The notes beneath the pieces are model-generated. The model was not told the DNA's origin. It did no database searches and was given only the letters and a program-made list of their open reading frames with translations. Of a stretch of 40,325 nt of DNA, positions 65 through 15,822 are shown piece after piece (position 1 is the first letter of the stretch; each line of letters opens with the position of its first letter). A program made the position numbers and the translations under genes. Source of the DNA: a virus; UHGV virus genome UHGV-0382853; one strand, written 5' to 3'.

Positions 65-2539
65 TTATTGCGGAGTGACATCCTGAGGTCGCCACCAGTA
101 TGTCTGGTTAAACTCTTTCTTCGAACGTTGCTCCATTTTACGCAAATAGCCTGGTGAAAAATACTCCTGCATCTGGTTAAAGATCATGTGATCGAGAGCC
201 GCCTTCAAGTACCAGAGATTCGCACCAGGCATCAAACCTTTCCCCAGCTTCACCAGATCACCACCAGTCTGCTCACTCTTCCCTTCCACAGCATTTAACG
301 GTATGCCCTGAGCAATCTTCACTACGTCATCAACTAGACCAGCTACCGGGCCAAGCATCGACGCCAGCGCGCCGCTTCCGTACCTAGTGTGATCTGACAA
401 TAAAAAGTCACCGTAAAGGCCAAGACCACCACCTTTCAGTAGAGCACCAAGCCAGAATTTTGCGGCATCTTCTCCTGTCATCTCTCGAGGATTACGACCA
501 GACGCAAGGTCGTTAAGTTGTTGCGACAAAGCGCCAAGAATGGTCGTACTGGCAATAAACGTCGCAATATATGCCGCACGCCCACCAGCAGACGGCATAC
601 CCATAGCGCGTGACCAGTGACGCATAACAACCGAGATAGGGAACGATTTAAACAGGAAAACACTTCTCGTTAATTCACCTTTCCATGTTCCACGCTGAAT
701 ACCAGAACCGGTTATCAGTTGCTCACGTGCTCCCGGTGTAATAACAGCCATATCAACTTCTTCAGTTACGGCACCGAGCAGTTTACGCATTGCCTCAAAT
801 TTCACGCGTTCAGGCTCACCAAGATGTTTAACTGCTGAATCAGGGATACGCATAATGCTTTCCGGTGTCAGCATCGTATTATTACCGTTCCCCCAGTCCT
901 CCTGTTGCGCCAACTTCCATACGCTCCAGTCTGTGTCAGTAATCCCTTTGCTTTTCAGGATACGAAAATCAGAGTCATCGAGGCGACGAAGGTCTGGTGT
1001 CCGTGACACTACTTCTCCCAGGCTTCCCATCATGGTTACGCCATAGGCGCGCTTGTGCGCATCTGACCATGCTGTAAGCCCACTGGCACGCATTACCGCC
1101 GTTGCAGCCCAACGAGACACAGACGGCCCCATATTATCCATCGCCCAGCGGTTAACGCTGCCAAGTAGAGATTCCATCGCCAGACCAGCGCGGCGCGCCC
1201 GCGCAAGTTCTGTACGGTTCGTTGGGTCCATAGCTTCAAGCTGGTTGCGGAATAACTGGTTCATTGGAAGGTTGGTAACCTTCGCAGACAGATACATGGT
1301 TCCAAGATCAGAGAACGATGACAGCAACGCGGATCCGAGTCTGCTGGCAACCAGCCAGTTGCGGATATTGTCAGACCATCGCGCGATGTGCGGATTCGCT
1401 ACAGGCTGTGTCTTTCCGGAAATAAAGTTGTACAGATTCTCTGTGTTGTTCGCCAGCCGCTCGACTTTACCGGTTTTACTCGGGTTAGCTGTTGCCGTTT
1501 CTGCCTTCACCTGATCAAGAAGAGAGCGGAAAACATGATCGGGGTTTGGACCATATGTTTCCACCAGTGCAATATCTTTACTGATACCTTCCAGGTGACC
1601 GACCATGATTTCCCATAGAGAGCGATCGCCATAAAGTTGCTGATATTGCAGATAGGAATCTGCATCTTTGAAATGTATCTGTCGTGATGCATTACCACGG
1701 TTAGCACGTGCGCCGGAAATTCGCATTCCGGTATCAGTAAGCTTATTCAGCCCACCAGTAGCGATCGTGTTATAAGCCTCTCCAAGAAATGCAGACAACT
1801 CGGCATCGTTCATCAGTTGTCCATCGGCTCGGGTATAATATTTGCGATCCAGCTTACCTATAACATCGCTAACCCATTTATCTTTTGATACCGCCCCAAC
1901 CTTTTCCATAGAATGATGTTGAGGGATCCCCCAGTTTTCGAGATAGCCAATGTCCCCACCAGCATCATTAAACCGGCGGCGCAGTAGCTCTGTCACTTCT
2001 CTCCACGCCTTAGCACCTTTTCTTGCTTTAGCATTGCCAGTATTTTGCCCCAGCATTTCATATACCAGGTCACGTACGCCCGCTTCATCTTCAAACAGAC
2101 CAAAAAAGCGAGGATCAACTGCTTCGAATGCCTCCTGCAATTGACTCAATGCATAATCACGGGTGGCTTTTGTTCTGGATTCAACAGAGAGGAAATTCGA
2201 TTTACCGTCTGCATTAAAAGCAATAGTACGGTTAAGAGCGCCAAGTTTCCCATCAGCCCCTTGATAGCTATTGATAAATTTATCCAATCTCTGACGTGCG
2301 GCTATAGTGAGGGCCACACGACGTTTCTTTAATGCCGCTTCTCGCTGTAATTCTTCAGATGCCAATTGTGCTGCACGATACAGCCGCTCTGATTCGGAAA
2401 GTTGTCGCCACGACATCGGGTCATCACGAGCAATGGAGCGCATATTTCGATAAATGCGGTCTTCAATGTTCTGTATTTCTCGCGCCGTTAACGTGCGCTG
2501 CGCCGCCTGCTGGACCGCTTGTATACATTCCTGTCTCAT
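65..2539 (-). CDS. large internal virion / ejection protein (T7 gp16-like position), last gene of structural operon
   Basis: 824-aa ORF, ATG with GAGAGG SD; follows the gp14/gp15-like genes in T7-like order; no specific domain recognised. Confidence 0.5.
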   Translation of the reverse strand: MRQECIQAVQQAAQRTLTAREIQNIEDRIYRNMRSIARDDPMSWRQLSESERLYRAAQLASEELQREAALKKRRVALTIAARQRLDKFINSYQGADGKLGALNRTIAFNADGKSNFLSVESRTKATRDYALSQLQEAFEAVDPRFFGLFEDEAGVRDLVYEMLGQNTGNAKARKGAKAWREVTELLRRRFNDAGGDIGYLENWGIPQHHSMEKVGAVSKDKWVSDVIGKLDRKYYTRADGQLMNDAELSAFLGEAYNTIATGGLNKLTDTGMRISGARANRGNASRQIHFKDADSYLQYQQLYGDRSLWEIMVGHLEGISKDIALVETYGPNPDHVFRSLLDQVKAETATANPSKTGKVERLANNTENLYNFISGKTQPVANPHIARWSDNIRNWLVASRLGSALLSSFSDLGTMYLSAKVTNLPMNQLFRNQLEAMDPTNRTELARARRAGLAMESLLGSVNRWAMDNMGPSVSRWAATAVMRASGLTAWSDAHKRAYGVTMMGSLGEVVSRTPDLRRLDDSDFRILKSKGITDTDWSVWKLAQQEDWGNGNNTMLTPESIMRIPDSAVKHLGEPERVKFEAMRKLLGAVTEEVDMAVITPGAREQLITGSGIQRGTWKGELTRSVFLFKSFPISVVMRHWSRAMGMPSAGGRAAYIATFIASTTILGALSQQLNDLASGRNPREMTGEDAAKFWLGALLKGGGLGLYGDFLLSDHTRYGSGALASMLGPVAGLVDDVVKIAQGIPLNAVEGKSEQTGGDLVKLGKGLMPGANLWYLKAALDHMIFNQMQEYFSPGYLRKMEQRSKKEFNQTYWWRPQDVTPQ

Positions 2540-2544
2540 TTAAT

Positions 2545-4347
2545 TTAACCTCTCAAGAAACACGCCACAGCAACATCAAACAGGCTGGAATCCTGTATTG
2601 CCTGCTCACTTTCCCTGTTCGCTTCATCCAGTACTTCACGCGCACTGCGCGATTGTGGATTACCATCATCATCCAGCACGGTGATTATCATGTCAGGTGA
2701 TTCAAGCAGCGAGTCTTCAGCTATACGCAGATCAATATCTCCTGCCGGATCTGCCATCATTTTTTGTTCTGTCTGTTGCAATATCTTACCGGGCTCAAAA
2801 GGAGCTACTTCTTCTGGCGTCCTGACCTCTGCTGTTTTATAGAATGAAACAGCCTGAGCATTAAGTTCACTTTCTGCCTGCTGTCGTCGTGCCAGTTCTG
2901 CTCGAGCTTCAAAAAACTGACCTCCAGGCTCGTGCGGCGCCAACGCGTTACGAGAAAATTCCAGGCGTTCTTGTGCCTGCCGGATTCGTTGGTCAATATC
3001 GCGAAGTCTGGCCTGTTTATCTGATCGAGCACGAGATAAAGCCTTACCGCTACCGGTTGGCTCTTCTGCAAGAATTTGTGCGCGCTGTTCAGTGAGATTT
3101 TCAATAATTCGTTGGCTATTAGCGATTTCAGACTGGTAAACCTTTCTATCGCCACGCGACAAAAGCTGCGCGGCCTGTTCTTCAAGCAACCGATTTTCTA
3201 TAGCGCGCGCCGTTACTCCATCATCTACAGATGACAGAGCCTCATTAACTGCCTGAGACAGCAGACTCTTGCGACCAGGAATTTCACTGAAAGATGCAGA
3301 CTCAACAATGCTGGCAACGTCTACAGGTCTCCCCTGGCTAACATCAGACATGGCTTTTCGCAGAGCCTGAATGTGCGAATTACGCGAAAGCACGTTGATC
3401 GGAACGCCGGGAGCAATATCAATTTCAGCATGATGAGCGGCATTCGCCGCCAGTGCAGCATCAATATCAACTGGTGAAAAATTTGGTGCGCTTGTAGACT
3501 CGCCGCGAGAGTTAATAAATCTGCCGACACCACCAAACGCCACCCCAAGAACAGCATCAATAGCAATTGCCTGTCGATCCAACACATCATACTGGTTAGC
3601 CATTTCGCTATAGCCACCATCACGAAGCGTTTTTGCAGTAAGCCCACGCTGTGCCATACCGAACGCAATATTTGTACCTGCGGCATAGGCAATATCTGGC
3701 GTTGCACGTACTGCTGTTGCTGCGGCGCGTCGCACTGAACTCTCACCCGTCCGCGCAAGCTGAGCCGCCACACCTTCCGCCAGCGCACCACCAGCACGTA
3801 ACCCGAGGCTCATAGGGATCAGTGTTCCGGCACCAGCAGTAATACCCTGCACTAATCCCGCTTCCTGCGCCGTCCTGAAATCAACACCCTGTGCTGTCAG
3901 CCGTTCAAACTCAGAAAAACCCTGTAGCGAAGTTACCGCCGCAGCACCTCCGACCGGACCACCGAGCGTTGTACCGATAACAGCCTGCCCGCCCATATCG
4001 AACAACCCATAAAGAACCTGCCCGGCGGTTCCGGTTGTCGCGGCATCAGGCGTCAGCCGCTTAACCTGCTGCTCTGCTAGTTTTCTCTGCTCGGCAATGT
4101 ATGAAACTGAAGTGTCATTGAGCGAGGTGTTTTCGTTAACAAACTGAGCAATCGGGGATACGATTTTATCCATCCCTGCCCAGAGCAACTGATCTGGCTT
4201 TGCCACCAGCCCGGAGTACAAACCAGACAATGCCGCTCCTACAGCATTGTCGAAAAAACCAACATCGCTGTTAAAGCCAGCTGGATTTGATGCTGCTTCG
4301 TCAAGCTGCTGATTCTGGTTTACTGGATTAAGGCCAAAGTAACTCAT
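2545..4347 (-). CDS. internal virion protein (ejectosome component)
   Basis: 600-aa ORF; its start overlaps the upstream stop (ATGA); Ala/Gly-rich; position in virion module. Confidence 0.5.
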   Translation of the reverse strand: MSYFGLNPVNQNQQLDEAASNPAGFNSDVGFFDNAVGAALSGLYSGLVAKPDQLLWAGMDKIVSPIAQFVNENTSLNDTSVSYIAEQRKLAEQQVKRLTPDAATTGTAGQVLYGLFDMGGQAVIGTTLGGPVGGAAAVTSLQGFSEFERLTAQGVDFRTAQEAGLVQGITAGAGTLIPMSLGLRAGGALAEGVAAQLARTGESSVRRAAATAVRATPDIAYAAGTNIAFGMAQRGLTAKTLRDGGYSEMANQYDVLDRQAIAIDAVLGVAFGGVGRFINSRGESTSAPNFSPVDIDAALAANAAHHAEIDIAPGVPINVLSRNSHIQALRKAMSDVSQGRPVDVASIVESASFSEIPGRKSLLSQAVNEALSSVDDGVTARAIENRLLEEQAAQLLSRGDRKVYQSEIANSQRIIENLTEQRAQILAEEPTGSGKALSRARSDKQARLRDIDQRIRQAQERLEFSRNALAPHEPGGQFFEARAELARRQQAESELNAQAVSFYKTAEVRTPEEVAPFEPGKILQQTEQKMMADPAGDIDLRIAEDSLLESPDMIITVLDDDGNPQSRSAREVLDEANRESEQAIQDSSLFDVAVACFLRG

Positions 4348-6857
4348 TGCGGAATATCTCCGGAGAATCTCTGACGCTTCTGTGTCAGATCAAGAACAAC
4401 GGGAGAACCATCATCTTTTAGCAGATAACCAGTACCAAGTTTCACCAGGTACTGACTATCGCCGTAACTTTGCAAACCATACTGACCATGCGGTGTTTTT
4501 ATCCCTGTGCCAACAACTTGTTCATTCCAAGCCTGATTAACCTGCTTATCGAATTGCTCTGCAGACATTCCCCACGGCAAAAGAACATTCCCCATTCCGT
4601 TATAGTCATGCACGCCACCTGTAGCTACGTTAACAGCCTGTTTCCAGATATCATTGTCAATTTCGCCTGATACCACGCCTTTTTTCGCCATCACACCAGC
4701 GTAATAGTCCTTTGCGATCTCGTATGCCATTGATGCCCCCTGAGCATCACCAGCAAATGCATCCTTCACCATGTCAGAAAACTCAAGGCGGAGATCAGCA
4801 TCTTTAGGCATCGGAATACCTTTCGCGTCATCAGTACCTTTACGAGCCGCCGCGCCAGCAAGAATTGTCTGCGCAGCGGTTTCAGGAGACACGGAAACAT
4901 CCGGATTAAACCAGTTTTTTTCTGCCAAAATACCACCTGGCTTATCCATCAGTATCCCGGCAACGGCAGCAGATGGAGCGTTGGCACTGATCTGCTGTAG
5001 TGCTGACATATACACCTGCCCACCACCAGTGCTCTGCCTGATGGTATCGAGATATGCTGCCTGTTGGGAAACGGGCGCATCACGAAAGAAAACACCGATC
5101 TGATTGGCCTCGTCTTTGGAAAAGAACGTCAGTGGAGTGCCATATGACTTAGCAAGGTCACTGACCTGAGCAGCACGCAAGGCAACGCTCTGTCCAAAGT
5201 TATCCTTATTGCTCATGTCGATAGGCTTTGCCTGTCCGGCGGCAAGAGAGAACTGTACAGGATCAGCCTGTCGCTGCTTTATCACCTGACTTGCAGCCGA
5301 AACAACGTTGTCATAAAGAGCGGCTCGTGCCGCATAACCCTCCCCTGTCTCACCAGTATCCGGGCGTAATTGCTCAACATATGCTGTAATGCTGCTTGTC
5401 GGCATGTTGCGGAAAGAGCCTATATACTGTCCGGCGATTTGCGTATTTCTGAACTCGGTATATCGCAGGTTTCCTTCTCTTACTCCATAAGCTGCAATAA
5501 AATCAGCCTCACCAGGTGGGTTAGGAAATTCAACGCCACGCATATACGCAGCTGTCGCATCGCGAACCTGGCTGTCAATCATCGTTTTATATTCAGCCTG
5601 CTGCTGCCGACGCAGTTGATCCGCCTGTCGCATAAAACTTGCCTGCGCCTCAGGAGATGCCGCATCGAATGCTGCATTACCGGTATAGCGTTTGGTGTTG
5701 GTTGGAATTGTTGATAAACCAAGTGCTGCACTGACACCAGCAGTTAACTGCTGATCACTGTATGGCTGGCTACCGTTCTCATGATGGATAATGGCTGCAC
5801 AAAGCGCCTTCAGGGTATCAGGATTAGATGCATCGAGAGGCTCATCAGCAGAAACGCCAAGTTGTTCGCACACTGCTTTGATATACGACATAGTGTCATT
5901 TTTATCAGTAGGCGGTGCCCAGCGATTAATTATCTCGCTGACGGTATCAATACCCTGCCTCTGATACGACATCAGGTTCCGCCCTAATGCACGAATCCCG
6001 TGTTCAGGTGTTTCGAATTTAGCAAATCGACCATCATCACCGGTCTGGCCTACCCACGGATTAGTTTTGCTGTATTCGAGATTTCCTGGGTTATTGTTGC
6101 GTATGCCACGGGCACGCTCGGAAGAGTCACTATCTGCTACAGCACGGCGAGCTCCAGCAGCAGTATCACTTAACTCGCCATTACTTTGGATGAATGCGGT
6201 CGCATTGTTTGCCGACCACTGGGACAATGCAGCATCAGCAACCTTCTCTTTAAACTCGATTTTCTTGGCCTGGATTTGCTCGTCACTCCAGCCATGTGCA
6301 ATGCCGTAATCCTCAATTTGCTGGAAAGTTTGCTTATTAGCCAATACGTATGCGGCGTTGTCGCCATACAATGCTGCGGCATTTTTACCATTGTTCAGCA
6401 GCGTAGCCTGAAACTGGCCTTCTTCGTAGGCATTTATTTGCCCTATCTCGTGCCGCCCTGCCTGCGTAGTGAACTGAATGCGCTGCTGCTGCGCCTGCTG
6501 CATGAAAGCATTACGAGCCTGTTCATCCGGCAGCGACATAGCCAGTTGTTCGACCTGAGCATCAAACTGCTGCGTATACTCCTGACCTTTTCCAATAGCA
6601 TTTTTCCCTTTCAGGTTAAGCAATCCTGTTTCAGGATTATTCAGCAGATCACTGCTTATCTGACTGAGGTTAAGAGATGCCTCCTGAGCCAGAGCGATAT
6701 TGGCACGCTGTTTTGCCTGACCAAAAACATCAATTGCCTCTGTCCCTGCCCGAACAAAAGCATCACCAATACCTGGCTGAGAAAACGTCTGCAAGCCTGC
6801 TGACTGAACTCCACGGCTCTGAACCTGACGGCCGGATACTGTTGGTACGACTGGCAT
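4344..6857 (-). CDS. internal virion protein (T7 gp15/gp16-like), possible enzymatic domain
   Basis: Start moved to ATG at 6857, which has a GGAGG SD 7 nt upstream (track start 6932 is GTG); contains a conserved-looking motif RGIRNNNPGNLEY...W.G...FETPEHGIRA. Confidence 0.5.
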   Translation of the reverse strand: MPVVPTVSGRQVQSRGVQSAGLQTFSQPGIGDAFVRAGTEAIDVFGQAKQRANIALAQEASLNLSQISSDLLNNPETGLLNLKGKNAIGKGQEYTQQFDAQVEQLAMSLPDEQARNAFMQQAQQQRIQFTTQAGRHEIGQINAYEEGQFQATLLNNGKNAAALYGDNAAYVLANKQTFQQIEDYGIAHGWSDEQIQAKKIEFKEKVADAALSQWSANNATAFIQSNGELSDTAAGARRAVADSDSSERARGIRNNNPGNLEYSKTNPWVGQTGDDGRFAKFETPEHGIRALGRNLMSYQRQGIDTVSEIINRWAPPTDKNDTMSYIKAVCEQLGVSADEPLDASNPDTLKALCAAIIHHENGSQPYSDQQLTAGVSAALGLSTIPTNTKRYTGNAAFDAASPEAQASFMRQADQLRRQQQAEYKTMIDSQVRDATAAYMRGVEFPNPPGEADFIAAYGVREGNLRYTEFRNTQIAGQYIGSFRNMPTSSITAYVEQLRPDTGETGEGYAARAALYDNVVSAASQVIKQRQADPVQFSLAAGQAKPIDMSNKDNFGQSVALRAAQVSDLAKSYGTPLTFFSKDEANQIGVFFRDAPVSQQAAYLDTIRQSTGGGQVYMSALQQISANAPSAAVAGILMDKPGGILAEKNWFNPDVSVSPETAAQTILAGAAARKGTDDAKGIPMPKDADLRLEFSDMVKDAFAGDAQGASMAYEIAKDYYAGVMAKKGVVSGEIDNDIWKQAVNVATGGVHDYNGMGNVLLPWGMSAEQFDKQVNQAWNEQVVGTGIKTPHGQYGLQSYGDSQYLVKLGTGYLLKDDGSPVVLDLTQKRQRFSGDIPQ

Positions 6858-7402
6858 TATAATCCTCCGGGTAATCTGGTTCCTGCTGCTGCCCCGATTG
6901 GCGCAGGGGTGCTTTGAGTAAACGGACTCCACGTCCCACCAAACATCTGGTACGCACCGTATGCCTTCAGAGGCGCAGTGAGCAATGTTGTTGCTGCTCC
7001 CACATTCCCCTGTTTACGGGCTGAACTGGCTTCTGCTTTATAGTTGGCAGCCTGAACCTGATAACCGTAAGCCTCGCGTTGCGCGTTATTCACCGTCGTC
7101 AGAGAATCAAGAGCGCCAAACTGGGCAGTGTCGCCAAATATATCCAGCGCGTTACCTGTAGATAAATCAGCGCCGGTAGCCCCCATTGTCGCCGCCTGTG
7201 TACCAAGCCGCTGTCGGGTCTCTCTGCGTCGTTGCTCAGCTTCAGCGTTACCTCTGTTTATTGCATCATTTGCCTGAGCTGTGGCTATATCTGCGTTCGC
7301 TTCTGCAACCTTCGAGGCATACTTTCCCTGTTGGTACTGGGTGTATGCCTGAATGCCACTCATGGCGAGCATTGCGCCACCAGCAATAACCGGATCGCAC
7401 AT
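6857..7402 (-). CDS. internal virion protein A (T7 gp14-like)
   Basis: 181 aa; N-terminus MC...SGIQA and C-terminus APIGAAAGT resemble T7 gp14; GGAGAG SD. Confidence 0.5.
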   Translation of the reverse strand: MCDPVIAGGAMLAMSGIQAYTQYQQGKYASKVAEANADIATAQANDAINRGNAEAEQRRRETRQRLGTQAATMGATGADLSTGNALDIFGDTAQFGALDSLTTVNNAQREAYGYQVQAANYKAEASSARKQGNVGAATTLLTAPLKAYGAYQMFGGTWSPFTQSTPAPIGAAAGTRLPGGL

Positions 7403-7866
7403 TATTTTCTCTCCATGTGAAATCTGTGGAAATTAAGACCAAGAGCACCATAAGGCGCGGCTTCTTCAAGCCTGAACCCAAGCCAGTGCAGCCATGCTTT
7501 GGCAACATGGTTTCGCTCGTCGACGTAGTTTTCCAGGCGCGGATAAACTGCCAGCATCTGCTGCAATACAGGGCGGCAGTGGCGCAGAAATGTCTTCTGA
7601 TATTTTTCAATACGGCTGGTTCCTACCAGCCAGGGCGTACCATTGCCACCGATCATTGACGCCGGAGATACACCAAACATGGTTACCAGTTCTCCGTTCG
7701 CGAACCCTGACCAGGCCATAGTCGCAGTGCGAAGACCAACGCGCAGCGCATCTTCGGTAGTCATCAGCGATACCGCATACAGTTCGTCAATATCAGCCTG
7801 ACGAACATCCGGCAAAATCATCTGAAGATGCTCTTCGGTAGCGGGAATAATTTGAACATCGATCAT
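7402..7866 (-). CDS. virion protein (T7 gp13-like position)
   Basis: 154-aa ORF translationally coupled between the tail tubular B-like and gp14-like genes. Confidence 0.4.
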   Translation of the reverse strand: MIDVQIIPATEEHLQMILPDVRQADIDELYAVSLMTTEDALRVGLRTATMAWSGFANGELVTMFGVSPASMIGGNGTPWLVGTSRIEKYQKTFLRHCRPVLQQMLAVYPRLENYVDERNHVAKAWLHWLGFRLEEAAPYGALGLNFHRFHMERK

Positions 7867-10337: not shown

Positions 10338-10942
10338 CAGGACAACCTCGCAATGGTAAACTCGTCAACCGGTGGCTGTGGTTCCTGTGATTCATTCTGG
10401 CTATGCGAGCCAGCACTAAGAATCACGCGATTGTACATATTGAGGGCAAACGTACCGAGGTCTGCATTCCCAGTCAGCGCCATGTTAATAGCTGCCGCAA
10501 GACGCCAGGCCAACGCCTCCATAAAAATGGCATCAAACATGTTCACATCTGAAACGCGAGAGACATACTTGAGCCATGCCTGCGGCTGGTCTGTGTAGAT
10601 CAACTTTCCTGTTCCGTTGGTGTCTGCACCAACTTCGTACTGAATGCGCATTGCTGCTGTTGGATTGCGTACACCAGGAAGCATAATTTCAGTAATGCGC
10701 AGACAATCGGACGGGTACTGATACGCATATTCCCAGTCAGGCGGTGGATTGCTCGTATTTGCAAGCGCCACGCGTTTGGTAGCAAAGTTCCAGTCAAAAT
10801 CAGAAAGCACAGCATCACGGCAGGCCTCAAAGTGCAGCGAACATTCCCCCGCTTCCTTGCTGGCTTCCGTCAGGCTGTTAATGCTGCGGCTGTTGCCAAT
10901 ATTGGACAGCGCACGATTGCAGATCTCTACTACAGAGGCCAT
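10337..10942 (-). CDS. tail tubular protein A (T7 gp11-like)
   Basis: 201 aa; size, position and motifs (SNIG, TSGQ-like) consistent with gp11 family. Confidence 0.5.
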   Translation of the reverse strand: MASVVEICNRALSNIGNSRSINSLTEASKEAGECSLHFEACRDAVLSDFDWNFATKRVALANTSNPPPDWEYAYQYPSDCLRITEIMLPGVRNPTAAMRIQYEVGADTNGTGKLIYTDQPQAWLKYVSRVSDVNMFDAIFMEALAWRLAAAINMALTGNADLGTFALNMYNRVILSAGSHSQNESQEPQPPVDEFTIARLS

Positions 10943-11265
10943 TACTCACCCCCATTGCCGTACAGGGTTTCAGCCGCTGATTTTTCTACATCACCGGAAA
11001 CAGGAGCGATTGCCATATCAGTGATCTGCAGATCGGCGCTGCGATTAACACCATCGTCAGTTTCTCTGGCATACAGGCCTCGAATAACAGCCTTTGCAGT
11101 TATCATCACTTCTGTTCCGACGCCCTGAGGTTGCGCCTTCAGCTTATTCAATGTGTCGTTATTAAGAGTGATGCACAGCCCCCACGGGTATTCATCGCGA
11201 GTTCTGGTTTCTCCGCTCTCATCCTGGTAGCTGTCAGTGCCGGTTTTGAGGTTTACGAGTTCCAT
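10942..11265 (-). CDS. hypothetical virion-module protein
   Basis: ORF with start moved to ATG 11265 (AGGAGTG SD); track start 11271 is GTG. Confidence 0.4.
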   Translation of the reverse strand: MELVNLKTGTDSYQDESGETRTRDEYPWGLCITLNNDTLNKLKAQPQGVGTEVMITAKAVIRGLYARETDDGVNRSADLQITDMAIAPVSGDVEKSAAETLYGNGGE

Positions 11266-11315
11266 ATACACTCCTGCAATAAAGGGGCCGAAGCCCCTTG
11301 TCTGATCCGCGAGGC

Positions 11316-11651
11316 TTACACGCCCAGTTCTTTACGCTTATCTGCGATCTTCTCGCGGAGCGTTTCAGCTTTGGCGTTATGGTGTGGCTTCTCGTTAAAG
11401 AGCAATTCGTACTCTTCACGGAGCTTATCCAGTTCACCATCATCTGACACATCGTTGATGATTTTGGTGCTGGTTGCTGCCATTGACACCTTTACTGCAA
11501 CTTTTGCTTTTGCCTGTCTGGCTGCATCGTTAACAGGTTCCAGTGCGCTACCAGGCTCACCTTCGTATTCGATTTCTGCCCCCTCCGGCCACAGTGTGTT
11601 ATGGATATGAGAGAGGCGCAGAACGCGGTATCTTGGTTTCTCACCTGACAT
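11316..11651 (-). CDS. hypothetical virion-module protein
   Basis: Start moved to ATG 11651 with AAGGTGA SD; charged, coiled-coil-like C-terminus. Confidence 0.4.
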   Translation of the reverse strand: MSGEKPRYRVLRLSHIHNTLWPEGAEIEYEGEPGSALEPVNDAARQAKAKVAVKVSMAATSTKIINDVSDDGELDKLREEYELLFNEKPHHNAKAETLREKIADKRKELGV

Positions 11652-11661
11652 CGATATCACC

Positions 11662-12099
11662 TTAACCAGTTACTTTTGAGCGGATCGGGTACGGCGTATT
11701 GGCATCAACATCCAGACTGATACCCGCAGTGAATTTGCCGGCCGTTAGTGGGCCAGTTGCGACGGAGTAGTTAACACGCAGATATCGCTGAACACCGGCT
11801 GGCACCTTTGCAGAAACAACTCGCTTACCTGCTGTCAGGGTGGCCTTTGCCAACGCACCACTATCATAAATAGTGGTCCAAGAGCTGTTATTCTCACTCG
11901 TCTGCAACTGGATGTTTACAGTTGCCTCACCACTTGCCGTGGCGGCTTCGTTAACCAGCCCCCAAAACTCAAGCGGGTAACCCACACCGATATCGCGACG
12001 GTTTCCATCAATTGGACCGAGATCGATTACGTCAGTAGAAGCCGCGGTATCAGTTACCGCCTGTGCTTCGGAGAACATCAACAGTTTGTCGGTGATCAT
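11662..12099 (-). CDS. hypothetical capsid-associated protein (possible decoration protein)
   Basis: 145-aa ORF immediately after the major capsid gene; GGAGAAAG SD; beta-rich composition. Confidence 0.35.
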   Translation of the reverse strand: MITDKLLMFSEAQAVTDTAASTDVIDLGPIDGNRRDIGVGYPLEFWGLVNEAATASGEATVNIQLQTSENNSSWTTIYDSGALAKATLTAGKRVVSAKVPAGVQRYLRVNYSVATGPLTAGKFTAGISLDVDANTPYPIRSKVTG

Positions 12100-12150
12100 C
12101 TTCTTTCTCCATTAGTGGGTCTGTTACGACCCACAGGTTAATAACAGGCG

Positions 12151-13137
12151 TTACACCACGCGGGCTTCTGTTTCCAGAAGCGCATCAGTTTCACGGATTG
12201 GTACACCACGGAATGACGTCCACCACTCGCCTTCAGTCTCTTTTACGCTAATCGCCAGAGATGTTTTCTCCAGAGACTGCAGATCAAGAGCCTGGCCTAC
12301 AGTGCGGTTCATGTAGAACACCGGGCGACCCATGCCACGGTTTGGAATGCGATGCAGTGCTTTAACCATCAACTTCGCAATATTTGCGGCAGAGGAAGGT
12401 TCTGAAAGATTGCTGACATCGATGTTTGCAATGCGAACAACATAACGCCAGTCACGCAGAGCAAGTCCGTTATCCCATTTGTAATGGGTGCGATAGCCTT
12501 CGTACTTGCCGCCATTAGCATCTTCCAGTGTCACCTGGCCTTTATCTTCCATCTGGATGCCAGCCTTCTGCCCTTTCGGGAAGATGCCATGCACGGTGTT
12601 TTCGCCCCACACTACTAACCAGATTGAGGTGTTATCTGTACCCGTGCCACCAGCATCAATGATGTTCTGAGCATTACCCGCAGACAGGCTGGAATAGCGG
12701 GAGGACAGTCCCATAAACTGCTGAGGGTTAACGCTGGAATCACCATAAAACAGTGTCTGCGCCATCTGCTGATTCATCGCTTCAATAAATGCGCGGTCTT
12801 CAGACAGGCGGAATTCGGCGGTATTACCGTTCAGATCAGCCAGTGACTTATCGACTTCAGCATAGGTTTCCAGCATTCCAACGGAATCGGTGACCTGCAC
12901 TGTGGTTGATTTGCTTGGCTGTACGCCATAGTTCAGCAAACGCCAGGTGGCTGAAGGTAAACCAGAACGAATGGTGGTTCGGTGTCCGGTAGGAAGGTTC
13001 CCTTCGACAAAAGGCATATCCTGAAGGATCGGGTTAGTTTGACCGAGAAGCTCGATAATCTTATCGACTTTCCCGTTTGGATCGACGCGCTTACCCCAGT
13101 CAGCCAGCGTTAGCGCAGTTAAGCCTTTAACAGCCAT
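12151..13137 (-). CDS. major capsid protein
   Basis: About 330 aa, directly downstream of the scaffold gene, strong SD (AGAGAGG) positioned for the ATG at 13137; typical capsid size and position. Confidence 0.7.
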   Translation of the reverse strand: MAVKGLTALTLADWGKRVDPNGKVDKIIELLGQTNPILQDMPFVEGNLPTGHRTTIRSGLPSATWRLLNYGVQPSKSTTVQVTDSVGMLETYAEVDKSLADLNGNTAEFRLSEDRAFIEAMNQQMAQTLFYGDSSVNPQQFMGLSSRYSSLSAGNAQNIIDAGGTGTDNTSIWLVVWGENTVHGIFPKGQKAGIQMEDKGQVTLEDANGGKYEGYRTHYKWDNGLALRDWRYVVRIANIDVSNLSEPSSAANIAKLMVKALHRIPNRGMGRPVFYMNRTVGQALDLQSLEKTSLAISVKETEGEWWTSFRGVPIRETDALLETEARVV

Positions 13138-13151
13138 TGTCATTTCCTCTC

Positions 13152-13847
13152 TTATTTGCCATAGAGCACTTCGGCCGCACTACGCTGGCCTTCATTACCA
13201 CCGGTGACCATGCCATCTTCAGACATCGCCTTTCCGATTTTCACGAACGTTTTGACCAGATCAGGGTGATTACCCAGTCCGGTGGTGTTCAGATATTCTT
13301 TGAGTTCAGGTGTCCCGAACTGGTCAAGCGCACGCTGTGCGGCGCTAAGGTTAGAAATCAACTTGTCGCCACCGATTTCTTTGTCAGCTTTTACATCCGC
13401 AGCCCACTGCTCGGTTGTTTTCTGCCAGGCTTCTGCCTGGCGCTGCTGAACACCTGCCAGAATCTTCGGATAAGCATCAACCAGCTTTTGCGCTTGCTCG
13501 TTGGTCAGGTTTAGTTCTCGCGCCACCGGCTCGAATTCCTTCAACGCTTCTGTATCCAGCTCTACGCCTTCGGCAGCCTGAAACTCGTACTTCTCAGGCG
13601 CACCCTCTGGTTTATCGCCGCCCTTTTTTTCATCCTGCTTATCGTTTTCAGGCTTTTTGTCATCAGCAGGTTTATCGCCATCAGCAACAGGTTGTGGCTT
13701 ATCACCTTCCGGTTGTGATGGATCACCAACTGGAGCAGGGTTATCACCTGCAGGCGCTGACGGTTCTGACGCAGCCGGAGCTGCTCCACCATCGACTGGT
13801 TGCTCATTGCAAAGACGGCGATACAGCAAACGCTCAAATAAATTCAT
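13152..13847 (-). CDS. scaffolding protein
   Basis: Acidic, Pro/Asp/Lys-rich low-complexity N-terminal half and helical C-terminus; lies between portal and capsid; start moved to ATG 13847 with CAGGAGTGA SD. Confidence 0.6.
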   Translation of the reverse strand: MNLFERLLYRRLCNEQPVDGGAAPAASEPSAPAGDNPAPVGDPSQPEGDKPQPVADGDKPADDKKPENDKQDEKKGGDKPEGAPEKYEFQAAEGVELDTEALKEFEPVARELNLTNEQAQKLVDAYPKILAGVQQRQAEAWQKTTEQWAADVKADKEIGGDKLISNLSAAQRALDQFGTPELKEYLNTTGLGNHPDLVKTFVKIGKAMSEDGMVTGGNEGQRSAAEVLYGK

Positions 13848-13849
13848 GA

Positions 13850-14146
13850 TCACTCCTGTTCACTGGCCTCTTTGGCCATCTTCAAATACTGTTCAGGGCA
13901 ATGCGCCATAACGCGCTGAAACAGTTCCAGCGCCAGATTGCGTTGCCCCTCATTAAATGCCATTGCCATAGAGTCCATCGGTGAGATAGCGGAAAACACA
14001 CGGCCTTTCTCCAGCACCGACCAGACAACGCGACGCCCCTGTTCACTGCTCATGACAAAGCGAATGTCATCAATTTCACGCTGTGCCATGTCACATTGCT
14101 TACGGGCGTTTTCTTCTTTCAGTTGATCATCTTCGTAATCTGTCAT
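13850..14146 (-). CDS. hypothetical head-assembly protein
   Basis: 98-aa acidic ORF coupled to the portal stop (ATGA overlap). Confidence 0.4.
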   Translation of the reverse strand: MTDYEDDQLKEENARKQCDMAQREIDDIRFVMSSEQGRRVVWSVLEKGRVFSAISPMDSMAMAFNEGQRNLALELFQRVMAHCPEQYLKMAKEASEQE

Positions 14147-15822
14147 TGTGATTGCCCACCCTGACCACTAACTGCATTCGCCATAGCTGACAAAACACTC
14201 GGATCCGAAGTTTTAGCTTCGCTTAGCGTCTTGGCACCCTGTGCCGCCGCCATCCCCATCGCCATCATTTGTTGCTGCTGTTGTTGCTGTGCCCGTTGCT
14301 GGCGAGCCTGCTCAACCTGTTCCTGCGGAACAATGACGGTTGGAGACACTCCAGACATATCAGCGAATGCATCGATCGCCTGATCAACGTTGAGTTTGTC
14401 GAGAGCTTCTGGTTTCGCTTGCGCAAGTTGACCAATGAAGTTAACCGTGGATGCCAGACTGGACAGGCCGATAGACTTCTGCGCCTGAGCCATGACGGAA
14501 ATGTATTCGACCTTCAGGGGCATGCCTTCCATCGCGTCAGGCGGTGGCGGCAACATGTTTTTACGCACCATCATCGAGAAAGCGCGGTCAATGAGAGGAT
14601 TAAGACATTCGTCGTTCAGACGCTCCAGAACCGGCCCCAACATCAGAAGTTTTTCTTCTTTCATTTCGATCACCGCTTCAACAGGCATCGAGCGGGTATT
14701 GATGTTCTGCAACATCATGAACAGATCGACAAAGTAGGCGCTGTTAATGATTTGACGAGTGTCCTGAATGTCTGCCACCAAATCTGCTGTACTGGGGTTA
14801 ACCAGATAAGCAGGCCTGAAGCCATCCTGACCAGTAATCTGATCGATATACGTGATGTCGCCAGGAAGAAGGGAGGCGCGCTGATTCTTGAGGGAAGTCG
14901 GAGCAACCATCGGAGGATTGGTGGCTTTATCAATCAACTGCGACTTGCGCTTCTGGAGAAGCTGCAATGCCTTAACAGGTCCAAGCGCCAGCATACCCGG
15001 GCATGATGATCCATAAACATCTTCGCCGTTAACTTCCCAGCGCGGAGCCATAATTGGAAACTCATCGAATCCGGACTCACGCAACAACTTGTCGTTATCG
15101 CCACCAACCTCGTAATAAACCGATTTGAATGGCTTGTTCTTGCTATCCAGCTTCGATGTATCGCGGTCAATGTTCGGGTAAACCGAATGCATCACTTCAA
15201 TCCACTTCTCGTAGGTGCCGCTTTCCCACATGCTTTTTACGGATTCGCTGACGTTATTTAGTCCGAATTCCTGAACAAGCTGACGAACAGTCATAGAGAA
15301 CTTGCGAAAACAGGTGTCCACACTGCCACGAGGTGAGTTAGCCAGGTAGTAACTTCCTATCGGGAATGGCATTGTACGAATGATGTCCTCGTCATCCTCC
15401 AGCACCGCCATTGCACCGGTGCTGTATGTGCCGAGGCTTCCGTATAACTGCGGCAGCGACTGATAGAGATTCGACTTATTGAACATATCGTTCATGCGGT
15501 TCTGCACTGCCTCAAGCCACAACTTAACAGGGCCATAATCCATCATTTCAGGATCTGGCGTAGCCAGGCGAAACCACGGACGCGCGGGGCTTGTGATGCC
15601 CGACATCATGCCGCTGGCGAGAGTGCGCGCCGCCATAGTCCCAGTCGAATCAATAATGCGTGTATTGCGTCGATCGTTACGGTTGACCTCAGAAGTCAGA
15701 AAGCGGGAACCACGCGGGTTGATGTAATCACTCAACTCGCGCCAGTGCGGCTCGAACGACTGACGCTCGCTTTCAAGTTGTGCGAACTGTTTGTTCAATC
15801 GCTCTTTAGTTGTTTCCGCCAT
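14143..15822 (-). CDS. portal protein
   Basis: 559 aa, downstream of terminase, Gln/Ala-rich C-terminus; GGAGT SD; size and position typical. Confidence 0.75.
   Translation of the reverse strand: MAETTKERLNKQFAQLESERQSFEPHWRELSDYINPRGSRFLTSEVNRNDRRNTRIIDSTGTMAARTLASGMMSGITSPARPWFRLATPDPEMMDYGPVKLWLEAVQNRMNDMFNKSNLYQSLPQLYGSLGTYSTGAMAVLEDDEDIIRTMPFPIGSYYLANSPRGSVDTCFRKFSMTVRQLVQEFGLNNVSESVKSMWESGTYEKWIEVMHSVYPNIDRDTSKLDSKNKPFKSVYYEVGGDNDKLLRESGFDEFPIMAPRWEVNGEDVYGSSCPGMLALGPVKALQLLQKRKSQLIDKATNPPMVAPTSLKNQRASLLPGDITYIDQITGQDGFRPAYLVNPSTADLVADIQDTRQIINSAYFVDLFMMLQNINTRSMPVEAVIEMKEEKLLMLGPVLERLNDECLNPLIDRAFSMMVRKNMLPPPPDAMEGMPLKVEYISVMAQAQKSIGLSSLASTVNFIGQLAQAKPEALDKLNVDQAIDAFADMSGVSPTVIVPQEQVEQARQQRAQQQQQQQMMAMGMAAAQGAKTLSEAKTSDPSVLSAMANAVSGQGGQSQ

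What the first reader, a model, noticed from the sequence alone, without database searches (positions are those of the whole stretch)
65..15822. T7-like virion module inside a temperate genome with lambdoid replication and immunity genes
Portal, scaffold and capsid are followed by gp11/gp12-like tail tubular proteins, a gp14-like protein (MC... start, APIGAAAGT end) and three large internal-virion proteins. All are translationally coupled on one strand. The same genome also carries an integrase, a repressor, O-like and P-like replication genes and Red-type recombination genes. The module order resembles temperate podoviruses; the 4344..6857 protein carries a conserved-looking NNPGN...FETPEHG motif that could be a cell-wall-acting enzymatic domain of the ejectosome.
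Basis: partly seen in the sequence, partly recalled or inferred. Interest (0 to 1): 0.45.

Follow-up and report, generated by a model that had tools for sequence, protein, structure and literature searches.

The report
Known phiV10/epsilon15-type temperate podophage virion module
This is the head, tail and DNA-injection gene block of an ordinary phiV10/epsilon15-type temperate E. coli phage, a well-studied group, so the finding is correct but not new; one unflagged detail, a matching tail peptide on two head proteins, deserves a follow-up.

Summary
The genes are there as described. Window 65-15822 is 98.4-98.7% identical over its full length to phages vB_EcoP_ZX5 and phiV10 (genus Uetakevirus, the epsilon15 group).

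Profile tests support T7 ancestry for the portal, adaptor (weak), nozzle, gp13-like, gp14-like and the 824-aa gp16-like protein. They do not support it for the capsid, scaffold, terminase or the 837- and 600-aa proteins.

The NNPGN...FETPEHG motif lies in an Enc34-type (PHA02564) peptidoglycan hydrolase domain, with the Trp/Tyr/Glu catalytic signature conserved.

Corrections:
- The recombination genes are RecET-type, not Red.
- The "O-like" gene is an HTH+DnaT initiator.
- Only the tail and injection genes overlap; the head genes have gaps of 2-51 nt.
- A gp13-like gene and four small head genes were missed.

All of this is published knowledge (Kropinski 2007 from my memory; Hardies 2016).

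Side observation, possibly new: the scaffold-like protein (databases call it "peptidase") and the gp10-like "capsid staple" protein end in the same A-x-x-L-Y-G tail. The tail co-varies across 45 lineages (permutation p<=5e-5), which suggests a shared capsid-docking peptide.

The parts
18680..19354 (-). Terminase small subunit (outside the flagged range, same late operon direction)
   Evidence: Pfam PF03592 Terminase_2, E 4.8e-29. Corresponds to PhiV10p01.
17208..18683 (-). Terminase large subunit
   Evidence: PHROG 2 'terminase large subunit', E 1.3e-52. Corresponds to PhiV10p02. No significant hhalign match to T7 gp19.
15837..16043 (-). Small 68-aa protein upstream of the portal gene (epsilon15 gp3 homologue). 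It carries a conserved C-terminal GKxxLGQ tail.
   Evidence: PHROG 831. The tail is conserved in epsilon15 gp3, BPP-1 Bbp22 and BcepC6B gp04.
14143..15822 (-). Portal protein, T7 gp8 family
   Evidence: Pfam PF12236, E 1.6e-187. PDB 8ck0_A 'Portal protein', E 5.7e-179. hhalign to T7-group gp8: 97.7%, E 2.5e-12, 473 columns.
13850..14146 (-). Bbp19-like small head-module protein (epsilon15 gp5 homologue)
   Evidence: Pfam PF25181 Phage_Bbp19, E 4.9e-17.
13152..13847 (-). Scaffold-like protein. Databases label it 'protease/peptidase'. It has an acidic, Pro-rich, disordered N-terminal half, an all-helical C-terminal half, and a C-terminal tail RSAAEVLYGK (13155-13184).
   Evidence: No Pfam or NCBIfam protease family. 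It sits between the portal and capsid genes. AF2 predicts only helices from aa 99-229, at low confidence (pLDDT 45). The tail is shared and co-varies with that of the gp10-like protein.
12151..13143 (-). Major capsid protein, epsilon15 gp7 / BPP-1 Bbp17 type
   Evidence: Pfam PF20911 GP7, E 2.1e-149. No hhalign match to T7 gp10A.
11662..12099 (-). Bbp16-like jellyroll protein, the probable outer capsid cement/'staple'
   Evidence: Pfam PF21190 Bbp16, E 1.8e-47. Bbp16 is the cement protein in the BPP-1 3.5 A head structure (PMC3863775). The 130-aa epsilon15 homologue fits the staple density best (PMC9207676).
11316..11651 (-). epsilon15 gp9-like small protein, function unknown
   Evidence: PHROG 590, E 8.7e-61. 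Corresponds to PhiV10p12.
10942..11265 (-). gp10-like protein (NCBI name 'capsid staple protein'). C-terminal tail KSAAETLYGNGGE (10945-10983).
   Evidence: Pfam PF21628 Gp10-like, E 1.4e-50. AF2 pLDDT 78, with a long beta-hairpin core and a low-confidence tail from residue 92. No Foldseek match to any PDB chain at E<=0.001, so none to the deposited epsilon15 gp10 model (3J40) either.
10337..10942 (-). Head-to-tail adaptor (T7 gp11 position)
   Evidence: PDB 8ck1_E 'Connector Protein', E 2.5e-26, and 9efk_T (Legionella phage LME-1 adaptor), E 2.7e-5. hhalign to T7-group gp11 is only weak: E 6.7e-4, 27%.
7866..10337 (-). Tail nozzle (T7 gp12 homologue)
   Evidence: PDB 8ck1_A 'Tail Nozzle', E 5.7e-218. 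hhalign of the 35-sequence alignment A1 against T7-group gp12: 97.0%, E 9.6e-11, 532 columns. There are 18,308 representative clusters of relatives.
7402..7866 (-).
   Evidence: PHROG 308 'internal virion protein', E 9.2e-63. hhalign to T7 gp13: 91.7%, E 7.9e-7, 130 columns.
6857..7402 (-). Internal virion protein B (T7 gp14 family), the presumed outer-membrane component of the ejectosome
   Evidence: Pfam PF24072 T7_gp14, E 2.5e-7, 31.2 bits against a cutoff of 27, covering aa 1-160. PHROG 418.
4344..6857 (-). First large ejection protein (837 aa, epsilon15 gp15 homologue). It carries an Enc34-type (PHA02564) peptidoglycan hydrolase domain at aa 249-370, i.e. window 5748-6113.
   Evidence: PDB 7q47_A 'Endolysin', E 2.6e-17, and 9vvp_L 'Gp29', E 3.8e-38. 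NNPGN at aa 255, FETPEHG at 281, W313, Y325 and E360 align with Enc34 Trp79, Tyr95 and Glu131. The motifs are conserved in epsilon15 gp15 and enterobacterial relatives.
2545..4347 (-). Second large ejection protein (600 aa, epsilon15 gp16 homologue); no recognisable domain
   Evidence: PHROG 1145, E 0. No Pfam, NCBIfam or PDB sequence match. One hydrophobic segment at aa 260-278.
65..2539 (-). Third large ejection protein (824 aa, epsilon15 gp17 homologue; distant T7 gp16 relative)
   Evidence: PHROG 684 'virion structural protein'. hhalign aa 306-682 against T7 gp16 aa 794-1161: 66.9%, E 5.3e-5. The same assignment was made by Hardies et al. 2016 (PMC4819975).
33973..36162 (-). Tailspike, the remaining virion gene, outside the flagged range in a low-GC block
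   Evidence: PHROG 5662 'tail fiber protein', with an N-terminal anchor (aa 1-166) shared with many tailspike PHROGs. 99.2% amino-acid identity to phage HEMP4. Residues 185-729 are 89% identical to unrelated phages JEP4 and HZ41. GC is about 0.40.

Best explanation
The window is a complete, probably circularly permuted, genome of a temperate E. coli podophage of the epsilon15/phiV10 type (genus Uetakevirus). Bases 65-15822 are its late-operon block for head, tail and DNA-ejection proteins.

Gene order on the minus strand:
1. Portal (T7 gp8 family).
2. Bbp19-like protein.
3. Scaffold-like protein.
4. Epsilon15-type HK97-fold capsid protein.
5. Bbp16-like cement protein.
6. Two small proteins, gp9-like and gp10-like.
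7. Adaptor, at the gp11 position.
8. Nozzle, gp12 homologue.
9. Internal virion proteins A (gp13-like) and B (gp14-like).
10. Three large ejection proteins of 837, 600 and 824 aa.

How it works (inferred from T7 and epsilon15 work, not shown here): the five internal proteins are packaged in the head as a core above the portal. On infection they are ejected through the nozzle and build a trans-envelope conduit. The gp14-like protein sits at the outer membrane. The 837-aa protein opens the peptidoglycan with its Enc34-type glycoside hydrolase domain, for which E360 is the predicted catalytic acid. The 600- and 824-aa proteins form the periplasmic and inner-membrane part.

The tightly overlapping genes from gp10-like to the 600-aa gene suggest coupled translation that could fix the stoichiometry of tail and core proteins. 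This is also inferred.

The block is combined with a lambdoid-style early region: HTH repressor, HTH+DnaT initiator, lambda-P loader, RecET recombinase and tyrosine integrase. That is the normal mosaic for this genus. Relatives BPP-1 and BcepC6B carry the same virion block next to T7-like DNA polymerase and primase genes.
For: - Near-identity to known phages: 65-15822 aligns over 100% of its length at 98.7% to vB_EcoP_ZX5, 98.4% to phiV10 and O157 typing phages 9/10, 81.6% to Enterobacter phage Tyrion, and about 75% to epsilon15 over part of it.
- Gene-for-gene correspondence with PhiV10p07-p20 and epsilon15 gp4-gp17.
- Family and structure matches: PF12236 portal, PF20911 capsid, PF21190 Bbp16, PF21628 Gp10-like, PF25181 Bbp19, PF24072 T7_gp14. 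PDB 8ck0/8ck1 portal, connector and nozzle, and 9efk adaptor and nozzle.
- hhalign matrix of 8 epsilon15-group families against 7 T7-group families: only cognate pairs exceed 1% probability. Values are portal~gp8 97.7%, IVP-A~gp13 91.7%, nozzle~gp12 88-97%, 824-aa~gp16 67%, adaptor~gp11 27%.
- Hydrolase domain: matches 7Q47 and 9VVP, with the catalytic triad conserved.
- Early region: PF06992 lambda P, HTH_36+DnaT, RecT, PDDEXK exonuclease, integrase domains, HTH_3 repressor.
- Published assignments: Hardies et al. 2016 identified epsilon15 gp11/gp12 as tubular tail A/B and gp13/gp14 as IVP-A/B, proposed gp15 and gp16 as unconfirmed IVP-C candidates, and assigned gp17 as IVP-D (PMC4819975). 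Swanson & Cingolani 2022 list epsilon15 among phages with gp14/15/16-like ejection proteins and a T7-like core stack (PMC8954989).
- Relatives: BPP-1 and BcepC6B share the virion block but have DNA polymerase and primase replication genes.
Against: - No direct pairwise similarity to any T7 protein by BLASTP or phmmer.
- A 35-sequence nozzle profile did not reach T7 gp12 among PDB sequences by hmmsearch.
- The 837- and 600-aa proteins have no detectable gp15 similarity.
- The gp16 link is only 67% probability and the adaptor~gp11 link is weak.
- Capsid, scaffold and terminase are not T7-like at this sensitivity.
- Virion location of the large proteins, muralytic activity and inducibility were not and cannot be tested here.
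- The circular permutation is inferred from one ORF that reads across the joined window ends.
Confidence: 0.95

Rival explanations
1. The three large proteins are siphovirus-type tape-measure or tail-fibre proteins, so the particle is not a podovirus with an ejectosome.
For: The 837-aa protein hits PHROG 2276 'tail length tape measure protein', E 7e-33.
Against: - That hit covers only aa 188-421, the peptidoglycan hydrolase domain, which tape-measure proteins and ejection proteins often share. The whole protein matches PHROG 992 end to end.
- No tail tube, tail terminator or baseplate genes are present.
- The adaptor and nozzle match solved podophage tails.
- The closest relatives phiV10 and ZX5 are described as short-tailed phages (abstracts).
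- The real receptor-binding protein is the tailspike at 33973-36162.
Confidence: 0.01
2. The block is a defective prophage remnant or an assembly chimera, not a functional virion module.
For: - The rest of the window matches the best relatives over only 50-66% of its length, in many pieces.
- The region 39903-40325 plus 1-64 is not shared with ZX5 or phiV10.
Against: - Every virion ORF is intact, and most have exactly the length annotated in phiV10 and ZX5; the few differences are alternative start codons.
- Terminase, lysis cassette, tailspike, integrase and immunity genes are all present.
- Mosaic early regions and swapped tailspikes are normal in this genus (PMC10408124 title and abstract).
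- An ORF reads cleanly across the joined ends.
Confidence: 0.04
3. The 231-aa protein between the portal and capsid genes is a prohead protease, as the databases label it, rather than a scaffolding protein.
For: RefSeq, PHROG 458 and NCBI name it 'protease' or 'peptidase'. The phiV10 record's note cites only similarity to epsilon15p06, whose own note cites similarity to a Salmonella 'putative endoprotease'.
Against: - No Pfam or NCBIfam protease family hit, even at E 0.1.
- The first ~98 residues are acidic, Pro-rich low-complexity sequence, and the rest is predicted all-helical with no globular core (low confidence).
- No other scaffold candidate exists in the module.
- It carries a conserved, co-evolving C-terminal tail, as scaffolds do.
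Confidence: 0.15

Closest known systems
Escherichia phages phiV10 (NC_007804) and vB_EcoP_ZX5 (MW722083), genus Uetakevirus
   Same: - 98.4-98.7% nucleotide identity over all of 65-15822.
- Identical gene order and mostly identical ORF lengths.
- Same type of integrase, RecET, P-like loader and GH19 endolysin.
   Different: - Only 50-64% of the remaining genome aligns.
- The tailspike receptor-binding part differs. It is 99% identical to phage HEMP4 instead.
- The short region downstream of the 824-aa gene differs.
Salmonella phage epsilon15 (NC_004775), type member with cryo-EM and proteomic data
   Same: One-to-one homologues of gp3-gp17. The Enc34-type domain and its motifs are conserved in gp15. 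It is a temperate podovirus with an internal core and an injection tube (papers).
   Different: - About 75% DNA identity, over part of the module only.
- Different scaffold and gp10 C-terminal tail class (AFYP rather than LYG).
- Different tailspike and host.
Coliphage T7 tail and internal core (gp8, gp11-gp16)
   Same: - Same gene order: portal ... adaptor, nozzle, IVP-A, IVP-B, large IVPs.
- Profile-level homology for gp8, gp12, gp13, gp14 (Pfam) and part of gp16.
- A muralytic domain sits on a large ejection protein.
   Different: - No pairwise sequence similarity.
- Three large proteins instead of two.
- The hydrolase is Enc34-type and sits in the middle of the first large protein, not an SLT-type domain at the N-terminus of gp16.
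- Capsid, scaffold and terminase are unrelated at this sensitivity.
- Temperate, with no phage RNA polymerase or T7-type replication genes.
Bordetella phage BPP-1 and Burkholderia phage BcepC6B
   Same: Same head/tail/ejection module, including Bbp16, Bbp19, gp10-like and scaffold-like proteins.
   Different: - Replication genes are DNA polymerase, primase and helicase rather than the lambdoid P loader.
- The gp10-like gene lies between the portal and scaffold genes.
- The hydrolase is SLT-type (annotated on Bbp11) or sits on a different protein (BcepC6B gp16).
Hafnia phage Enc34 endolysin catalytic domain (PDB 7Q47, family PHA02564)
   Same: Residues 249-367 align with E 2.6e-17. The NNPGN motif and the Trp79/Tyr95/Glu131 equivalents (W313, Y325, E360) are conserved.
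   Different: Enc34's enzyme is a stand-alone lysis protein with a C-terminal membrane helix. Here the domain is embedded in an 837-aa virion ejection protein, and the phage has a separate GH19 endolysin for lysis at 32159-32788.
phiKMV gp36 and SP6 gp36 (gp15-position ejection proteins with lysozyme domains)
   Same: A peptidoglycan-degrading domain carried by the first large internal virion protein (annotations).
   Different: Different enzyme family and different position within the protein. No detectable sequence relationship.
Herpesvirus protease/scaffold pair (UL26/UL26.5) and the HK97 protease C-terminal capsid-targeting signal (from my own knowledge, not tested)
   Same: Two head-assembly proteins share one C-terminal capsid-docking tail. 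This is the logic I propose for the scaffold-like and gp10-like proteins here.
   Different: - Here the two genes are separate and not nested.
- The gp10-like protein is about 107 aa with no protease motif.
- Binding to the capsid protein has not been shown.

Membership tests
Genus Uetakevirus (epsilon15/phiV10-like temperate podophages) | High nucleotide identity to recognised members. The ICTV genus rule of roughly 70% over the genome is from my own knowledge. | tested here: met
   65-15822 is 98.4-98.7% identical at 100% coverage to phiV10 and ZX5. The other 24.5 kb is 95-97% identical over 50-64% of its length. The whole-genome figure was not computed exactly.
Genus Uetakevirus (epsilon15/phiV10-like temperate podophages) | Conserved late-gene order from terminase to gp17, with a separate tailspike and lysis cassette | tested here: met
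   One-to-one with PhiV10p01-p20 and epsilon15 gp1-gp17. Tailspike N-terminal anchor is 95% identical to other members.
Genus Uetakevirus (epsilon15/phiV10-like temperate podophages) | Short-tailed virion, temperate life cycle | not testable with these tools
   Integrase and repressor genes are present. Morphology needs electron microscopy.
T7-type portal/tail/ejectosome module | Portal of the T7 gp8 family | tested here: met
   PF12236, E 1.6e-187. hhalign 97.7%.
T7-type portal/tail/ejectosome module | Adaptor homologous to gp11 | tested here: inconclusive
   hhalign E 6.7e-4, 27% probability, 53 columns, but gp11 is the only T7 partner above noise. Sequence matches to solved podophage adaptors 8ck1_E and 9efk_T.
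T7-type portal/tail/ejectosome module | Nozzle homologous to gp12 | tested here: met
   hhalign 97.0%, E 9.6e-11, 532 columns. hmmsearch of the profile against PDB did not reach T7 gp12.
T7-type portal/tail/ejectosome module | gp13- and gp14-like small internal virion proteins directly after the nozzle gene | tested here: met
   154-aa against gp13: 91.7%, E 7.9e-7. 181-aa matches Pfam T7_gp14 above the curated cutoff. hhalign for gp14 itself was not significant.
T7-type portal/tail/ejectosome module | gp15 homologue | tested here: not met
   Neither the 837-aa nor the 600-aa protein gives any signal against T7-group gp15. Hardies et al. also failed to find one. Only position and size agree.
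T7-type portal/tail/ejectosome module | gp16 homologue | tested here: inconclusive
   824-aa residues 306-682 against gp16 794-1161: 66.9%, E 5.3e-5.
Autographiviridae (T7 family proper) | Phage-encoded single-subunit RNA polymerase, T7-type capsid, scaffold and terminase | tested here: not met
   - All four ORFs of 700 aa or more are assigned virion proteins, so none is left for an RNA polymerase.
- Capsid, scaffold and TerL show no hhalign match to gp10A, gp9 or gp19.
PHA02564 / Enc34-type peptidoglycan hydrolase | Sequence homology to the solved catalytic domain, with the catalytic Glu and the Trp/Tyr signature conserved | tested here: met
   7q47_A, E 2.6e-17. E360, W313 and Y325 align with Glu131, Trp79 and Tyr95.
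PHA02564 / Enc34-type peptidoglycan hydrolase | Muralytic activity | not testable with these tools
   Needs a turbidity or zymogram assay.
Lambdoid replication module (O and P) | Lambda P family helicase loader | tested here: met
   PF06992, E 1.5e-56, for 23127-23927.
Lambdoid replication module (O and P) | Lambda O family initiator | tested here: not met
   23909-24724 carries HTH_36 plus a DnaT DNA-binding domain, with no lambda O Pfam hit. Its N-terminal half hits O-like PHROGs more weakly. It is the same in position and role, but a different family.
Lambda Red recombination (Exo/Beta) | Lambda exonuclease plus Red-beta proteins | tested here: not met
   The genes are a PD-(D/E)XK DUF3799 exonuclease (26868-27689) and a RecT-family annealase (27686-28567). 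They are annotated RecE/RecT in relatives. The function is analogous, but this is RecET-type.
Siphovirus tape-measure or tail-fibre proteins | Full-length match of the large proteins to tape-measure or fibre families | tested here: not met
   There is only a domain-limited tape-measure PHROG hit, at aa 188-421.

The most novel reading that the evidence does not exclude
The scaffold-like protein (13152-13847) and the small gp10-like protein (10942-11265, currently named 'capsid staple protein') carry the same co-evolving C-terminal docking peptide, A-x-x-[L/M/F]-[Y/F]-[G/P/S].

The proposal is that this peptide targets both proteins to one site on the procapsid, most likely the capsid protein. 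The logic is the same as for the herpesvirus protease/scaffold pair or the HK97 protease tail.

A published re-analysis assigns the epsilon15 outer staple density to the 130-aa Bbp16-like protein instead. Taken together, this would make gp10-like a co-assembled head protein of unknown role, not the outer staple. It would also mean the 'peptidase' is really the scaffold.
Probability: 0.4. Interest if true: 0.45.

Novelty: already known. Interest (0 to 1): 0.15.

Why it matters
The flagged feature itself adds nothing new. Epsilon15/phiV10-type phages are long-known temperate podoviruses whose T7-related tail and ejection genes have been analysed in print.

The practical value is in annotation fixes:
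- The 837-aa protein should be called an ejection protein with an Enc34-type glycoside hydrolase domain, not 'head protein' or SLT.
- The 154-aa protein is a gp13 homologue.
- 'Peptidase' for the scaffold-position gene has no support.
- 'Capsid staple' for the gp10-like gene conflicts with a 2022 re-analysis.

The shared, co-varying C-terminal tail on the scaffold-like and gp10-like proteins gives a concrete, testable handle on how small proteins are recruited into this widespread capsid type. It may also offer a targeting tag for loading cargo into such capsids.

Tried and rejected
1. Direct BLASTP and phmmer of all window virion proteins against T7 gp8-gp19 gave nothing significant. Profile methods were needed.
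2. hmmsearch of a 35-sequence nozzle profile against PDB sequences found 8ck1 and 9efk but not T7 gp12.
3. The search for homologous proteins for the 824-aa and the 231-aa proteins returned only relatives of 80% identity or more. No deep alignment was possible, so the large ejection proteins were not folded.
4. AF2 of the scaffold-like protein gave pLDDT 45, too poor for a fold search. Only the secondary-structure content was used, with caution.
5. Foldseek of the gp10-like model against PDB found no significant match. Against BFVD it found only members of its own family, so the fold gave no functional clue.
6. The first viral-contig scan with the scaffold alignment gave near-identical loci. 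Putting a divergent sequence first gave the diverse set that was used.
7. The source phage of PDB 8CK0/8CK1 and of 9VVP could not be identified in the paper library.
8. NCBIfam gave no informative hits for any virion protein.
9. Gene conversion as the cause of the shared tails was considered and rejected. The two tail-coding stretches share only 15 of 27 nt and use different Ser codon families.
10. A C-terminal degradation tag was considered unlikely, because the motif is followed by 1-7 variable residues. This is inference.

Full report
WHAT IS THERE

The window has one long run of minus-strand ORFs from 19354 down to 65. Megablast of 65-15822 against 50,697 phage records gives full-length matches at these identities:
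- 98.7% to Escherichia phage vB_EcoP_ZX5.
- 98.4% to phiV10, O157 typing phages 9/10 and PAS61.
- 98.2% to phiv142-3 and 97.8% to HEMP4.
- 81.6% to Enterobacter phage Tyrion.
- About 75-77% to Salmonella relatives, including epsilon15 over part of the block.

The curated phiV10 and epsilon15 records map gene for gene onto the window: PhiV10p07-p20 and epsilon15 gp4-gp17. The remaining 24.5 kb matches the same phages over only 50-66% of its length, in many pieces. That is the usual mosaicism of temperate phages.

If the two window ends are joined, a 57-aa ORF with two hydrophobic helices reads across the junction, directly after the 824-aa gene. The window is therefore most likely a complete, circularly permuted genome. 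This is an inference.

CHECK OF THE OBSERVATION

- Portal: PF12236, E 1.6e-187.
- Capsid: PF20911, E 2e-149.
- Adaptor and nozzle: match the 'Connector Protein' and 'Tail Nozzle' chains of PDB 8CK1 (E 2.5e-26 and 5.7e-218), and more weakly the adaptor and nozzle of Legionella phage LME-1, 9EFK.
- 181-aa protein: starts MCDPV, contains APIGAAAGT six residues before its end, and passes the curated threshold of Pfam T7_gp14.
- NNPGN and FETPEHG: at residues 255 and 281 of the 837-aa protein.

The claim that all genes are translationally coupled is only partly true. Seven consecutive junctions from the gp10-like gene to the 600-aa gene overlap by 1 or 4 nt, as does portal->Bbp19-like. The head genes are separated by 2-51 nt, and one 50-nt gap holds a GC hairpin with a T-rich tail.

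The virion set also includes the terminase (17208-19354) and a tailspike far away at 33973-36162.

HOW T7-LIKE IS IT

Pairwise BLASTP and phmmer against T7 gp8-gp19 find nothing. I therefore built alignments in two steps:
1. The epsilon15 group: the window, epsilon15, BPP-1 and BcepC6B, later deepened with up to 69 homologues from fetched loci.
2. The T7 group: T7, phiKMV and SP6.

I compared all family pairs with hhalign. Only cognate pairs rise above 1% probability:
- portal~gp8: 97.7%, E 2.5e-12.
- nozzle~gp12: 88-97%, E down to 9.6e-11 over 532 columns.
- 154-aa~gp13: 91.7%, E 7.9e-7.
- 824-aa~gp16: 66.9%, E 5.3e-5, residues 306-682 against 794-1161.
- adaptor~gp11: 27%, E 6.7e-4.

The gp14 link comes from Pfam instead. 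The 837- and 600-aa proteins show no gp15 signal. The capsid, scaffold-position protein and terminase show no T7 signal.

This reproduces Hardies et al. 2016. They assigned epsilon15 gp11/gp12 as tubular tail A/B, gp13/gp14 as IVP-A/B and gp17 as IVP-D. They could only propose gp15 and gp16 as IVP-C by position, and they noted that the epsilon15 capsid and terminase group with siphoviruses (PMC4819975). So 'T7-like' holds for the portal, tail and ejection proteins, not for the whole virion module.

THE ENZYME DOMAIN

Residues 249-398 of the 837-aa protein match the N-terminus of 'Gp29' in PDB 9VVP (E 3.8e-38). Residues 249-367 match the crystal structure of the Hafnia phage Enc34 endolysin catalytic domain, 7Q47 (E 2.6e-17).

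The Enc34 paper defines family PHA02564 as a diverged lysozyme-like fold related to GH73 and GH23. It has a catalytic Glu131 and a Trp79/Tyr95 signature, and the authors argue for N-acetylglucosaminidase activity (PMC8943055). In the alignment these residues correspond to E360 (HENGS), W313 (RWAPP) and Y325 here. All are conserved in epsilon15 gp15 and enterobacterial relatives.

A Superficieibacter prophage has what looks by eye like an SLT-type motif at the same place. BcepC6B lacks the domain in this protein. The enzyme domain is therefore swappable. Pfam has no model for it.

The phage has a separate GH19 endolysin for lysis.

THE REST OF THE GENOME

Confirmed:
- Tyrosine integrase, 30115-31362.
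- HTH_3 repressor candidate, 25476-26060.
- Lambda-P-family loader, 23127-23927.

Corrections:
- The initiator next to P is an HTH_36+DnaT protein, not the lambda O family.
- The recombination pair is RecT plus a PD-(D/E)XK exonuclease, i.e. RecET-type.

BPP-1 and BcepC6B carry the same virion block next to DNA polymerase, primase and helicase genes. The combination of this virion block with a lambdoid early region is thus one of several known mosaics.

MECHANISM

Shown here: homology and gene order.

Inferred from T7 and epsilon15 literature:
- The gp13-like and gp14-like proteins and the three large proteins are packaged as an internal core.
- They are ejected through the nozzle.
- They form the trans-envelope channel.
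- The Enc34-type domain cuts the peptidoglycan locally.

NOVELTY

None for the flagged feature. The genus Uetakevirus, its temperate podovirus nature and its T7-related tail and ejection genes are all published.

A SIDE OBSERVATION WORTH KEEPING

The protein between the portal and capsid genes is labelled 'protease' or 'peptidase' in every database, yet it has no protease family hit. Its features:
- An acidic, Pro-rich N-terminal half of about 98 residues.
- A C-terminal half predicted all-helical, at low confidence (pLDDT 45).
- The C-terminus RSAAEVLYGK.

The gp10-like protein ends KSAAETLYGNGGE. The same pairing recurs with different sequences in other lineages:
- epsilon15: LISAFYPKK and LKDAFYPDGEDD.
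- BPP-1: ARRLYAASNMNP and AQRLYGASSMSA.
- BcepC6B: RAAKLYDKS and RAAKFYANTPTT.

I collected 101 loci, including 80 diverse viral contigs and 12 bacterial genomes. Of these, 56 had both genes, giving 47 unique tail pairs, of which 45 could be anchored and scored.

Results of the comparison:
- With the anchoring L-Y excluded, cognate tails are more alike than non-cognate ones. BLOSUM62 means are 14.5 against 7.0 for all 45 pairs, and 14.2 against 4.8 for 14 dissimilar representatives. None of 20,000 permutations reached the observed value in either test.
- In 11 of 13 diverse loci, the ORF whose last 14 residues best match the scaffold tail, out of 66-510 six-frame ORFs, is the gp10-like gene.
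- The DNA of the two tails shares only 15 of 27 nt and uses different Ser codon families. The similarity is therefore kept at the peptide level.
- AF2 gives a confident beta-hairpin core for gp10-like (pLDDT 78) with a low-confidence tail. The model matches no PDB chain at E<=0.001, so it does not match the deposited epsilon15 gp10 model either.

This agrees with Hryc & Baker 2022, who concluded that the epsilon15 'staple' density belongs to the 130-aa Bbp16-like protein, not the 111-aa gp10 (PMC9207676).

My reading is inference. The tail is a shared capsid-docking peptide, the 231-aa protein is the scaffold, and gp10-like is a co-assembled head protein whose place in the particle is open. 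I found no paper describing this in the searchable library, but that library is incomplete.

VERDICT

The feature is already known, so interest is low. The co-varying tail peptide is the one item worth an experiment.

Noticed in passing
window 13155-13184 and 10945-10983 (minus strand): The scaffold-like protein and the gp10-like 'capsid staple' protein end in the same A-x-x-L-Y-G tail. The tails co-vary across 45 unique lineage pairs (permutation p<=5e-5). The similarity is held at the peptide level, not the DNA level.
   Followed up: yes
window 10942-11265 and 11662-12099 (minus strand): The genome encodes both a gp10-like protein and a Bbp16-like jellyroll protein. A 2022 re-analysis says the epsilon15 outer staple is the Bbp16-like 130-aa protein, so the NCBI name 'capsid staple protein' and Pfam's 'Major coat protein-like' label for the gp10 family are probably wrong.
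   Followed up: partly
window 16471-16547 (+), overlapping minus-strand ORF 16477-16728: A strong tRNA-Arg(UCU) (Rfam 73 bits; ARAGORN) lies on the plus strand. It sits inside an ORF that the phiV10 RefSeq record annotates as hypothetical protein PhiV10p04, and no tRNA is listed there. A plus-strand terminator-like hairpin follows at 16711-16726.
   Followed up: partly
window 37531-37607, 37632-37716 and 37766-38422 (+): Rfam finds isrK (67.7 bits) and a C4 antisense RNA (61.2 bits) directly upstream of an AntA/AntB antirepressor gene. This is a P1/P7 immI-like RNA-controlled antirepressor module, in addition to the protein repressor.
   Followed up: no
window 33973-36162 (minus strand): The tailspike sits in a low-GC (about 0.40) block. 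Residues 1-203 are 95% identical to other Uetakevirus tailspikes. Residues 185-729 are 89% identical to unrelated phages JEP4, HZ41 and 92CQ, and the whole protein is 99.2% identical to HEMP4. This is modular receptor-binding-domain exchange.
   Followed up: partly
window 1-64 joined to 40207-40325; also 39898-40194 (minus strand): An ORF of about 57 aa with two hydrophobic helices reads across the joined window ends, followed by a 98-aa multi-helix membrane protein. This region is not shared with ZX5 or phiV10, which carry other small membrane genes at that spot.
   Followed up: partly
window 15837-16043 (minus strand): The 68-aa protein upstream of the portal gene has a C-terminal GKxxLGQ tail that is conserved in epsilon15 gp3, BPP-1 Bbp22 and BcepC6B gp04, despite otherwise divergent sequences.
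   Followed up: no
L098 about 14568 onward (Superficieibacter electus prophage), compared with window 5748-6113: At the position of the Enc34-type domain, this relative's homologue of the 837-aa protein carries what looks by eye like an SLT-type motif (GAQGQFQLMPDTG). BcepC6B gp15 lacks the domain. The muralytic domain of this ejection protein appears to be exchangeable.
   Followed up: no
window 13152-13847 (minus strand): The 'protease/peptidase' label used by RefSeq, PHROGs and NCBI has no support from any family model. The phiV10 record's note cites only similarity to epsilon15p06, whose own note cites similarity to a Salmonella 'putative endoprotease'.
   Followed up: partly
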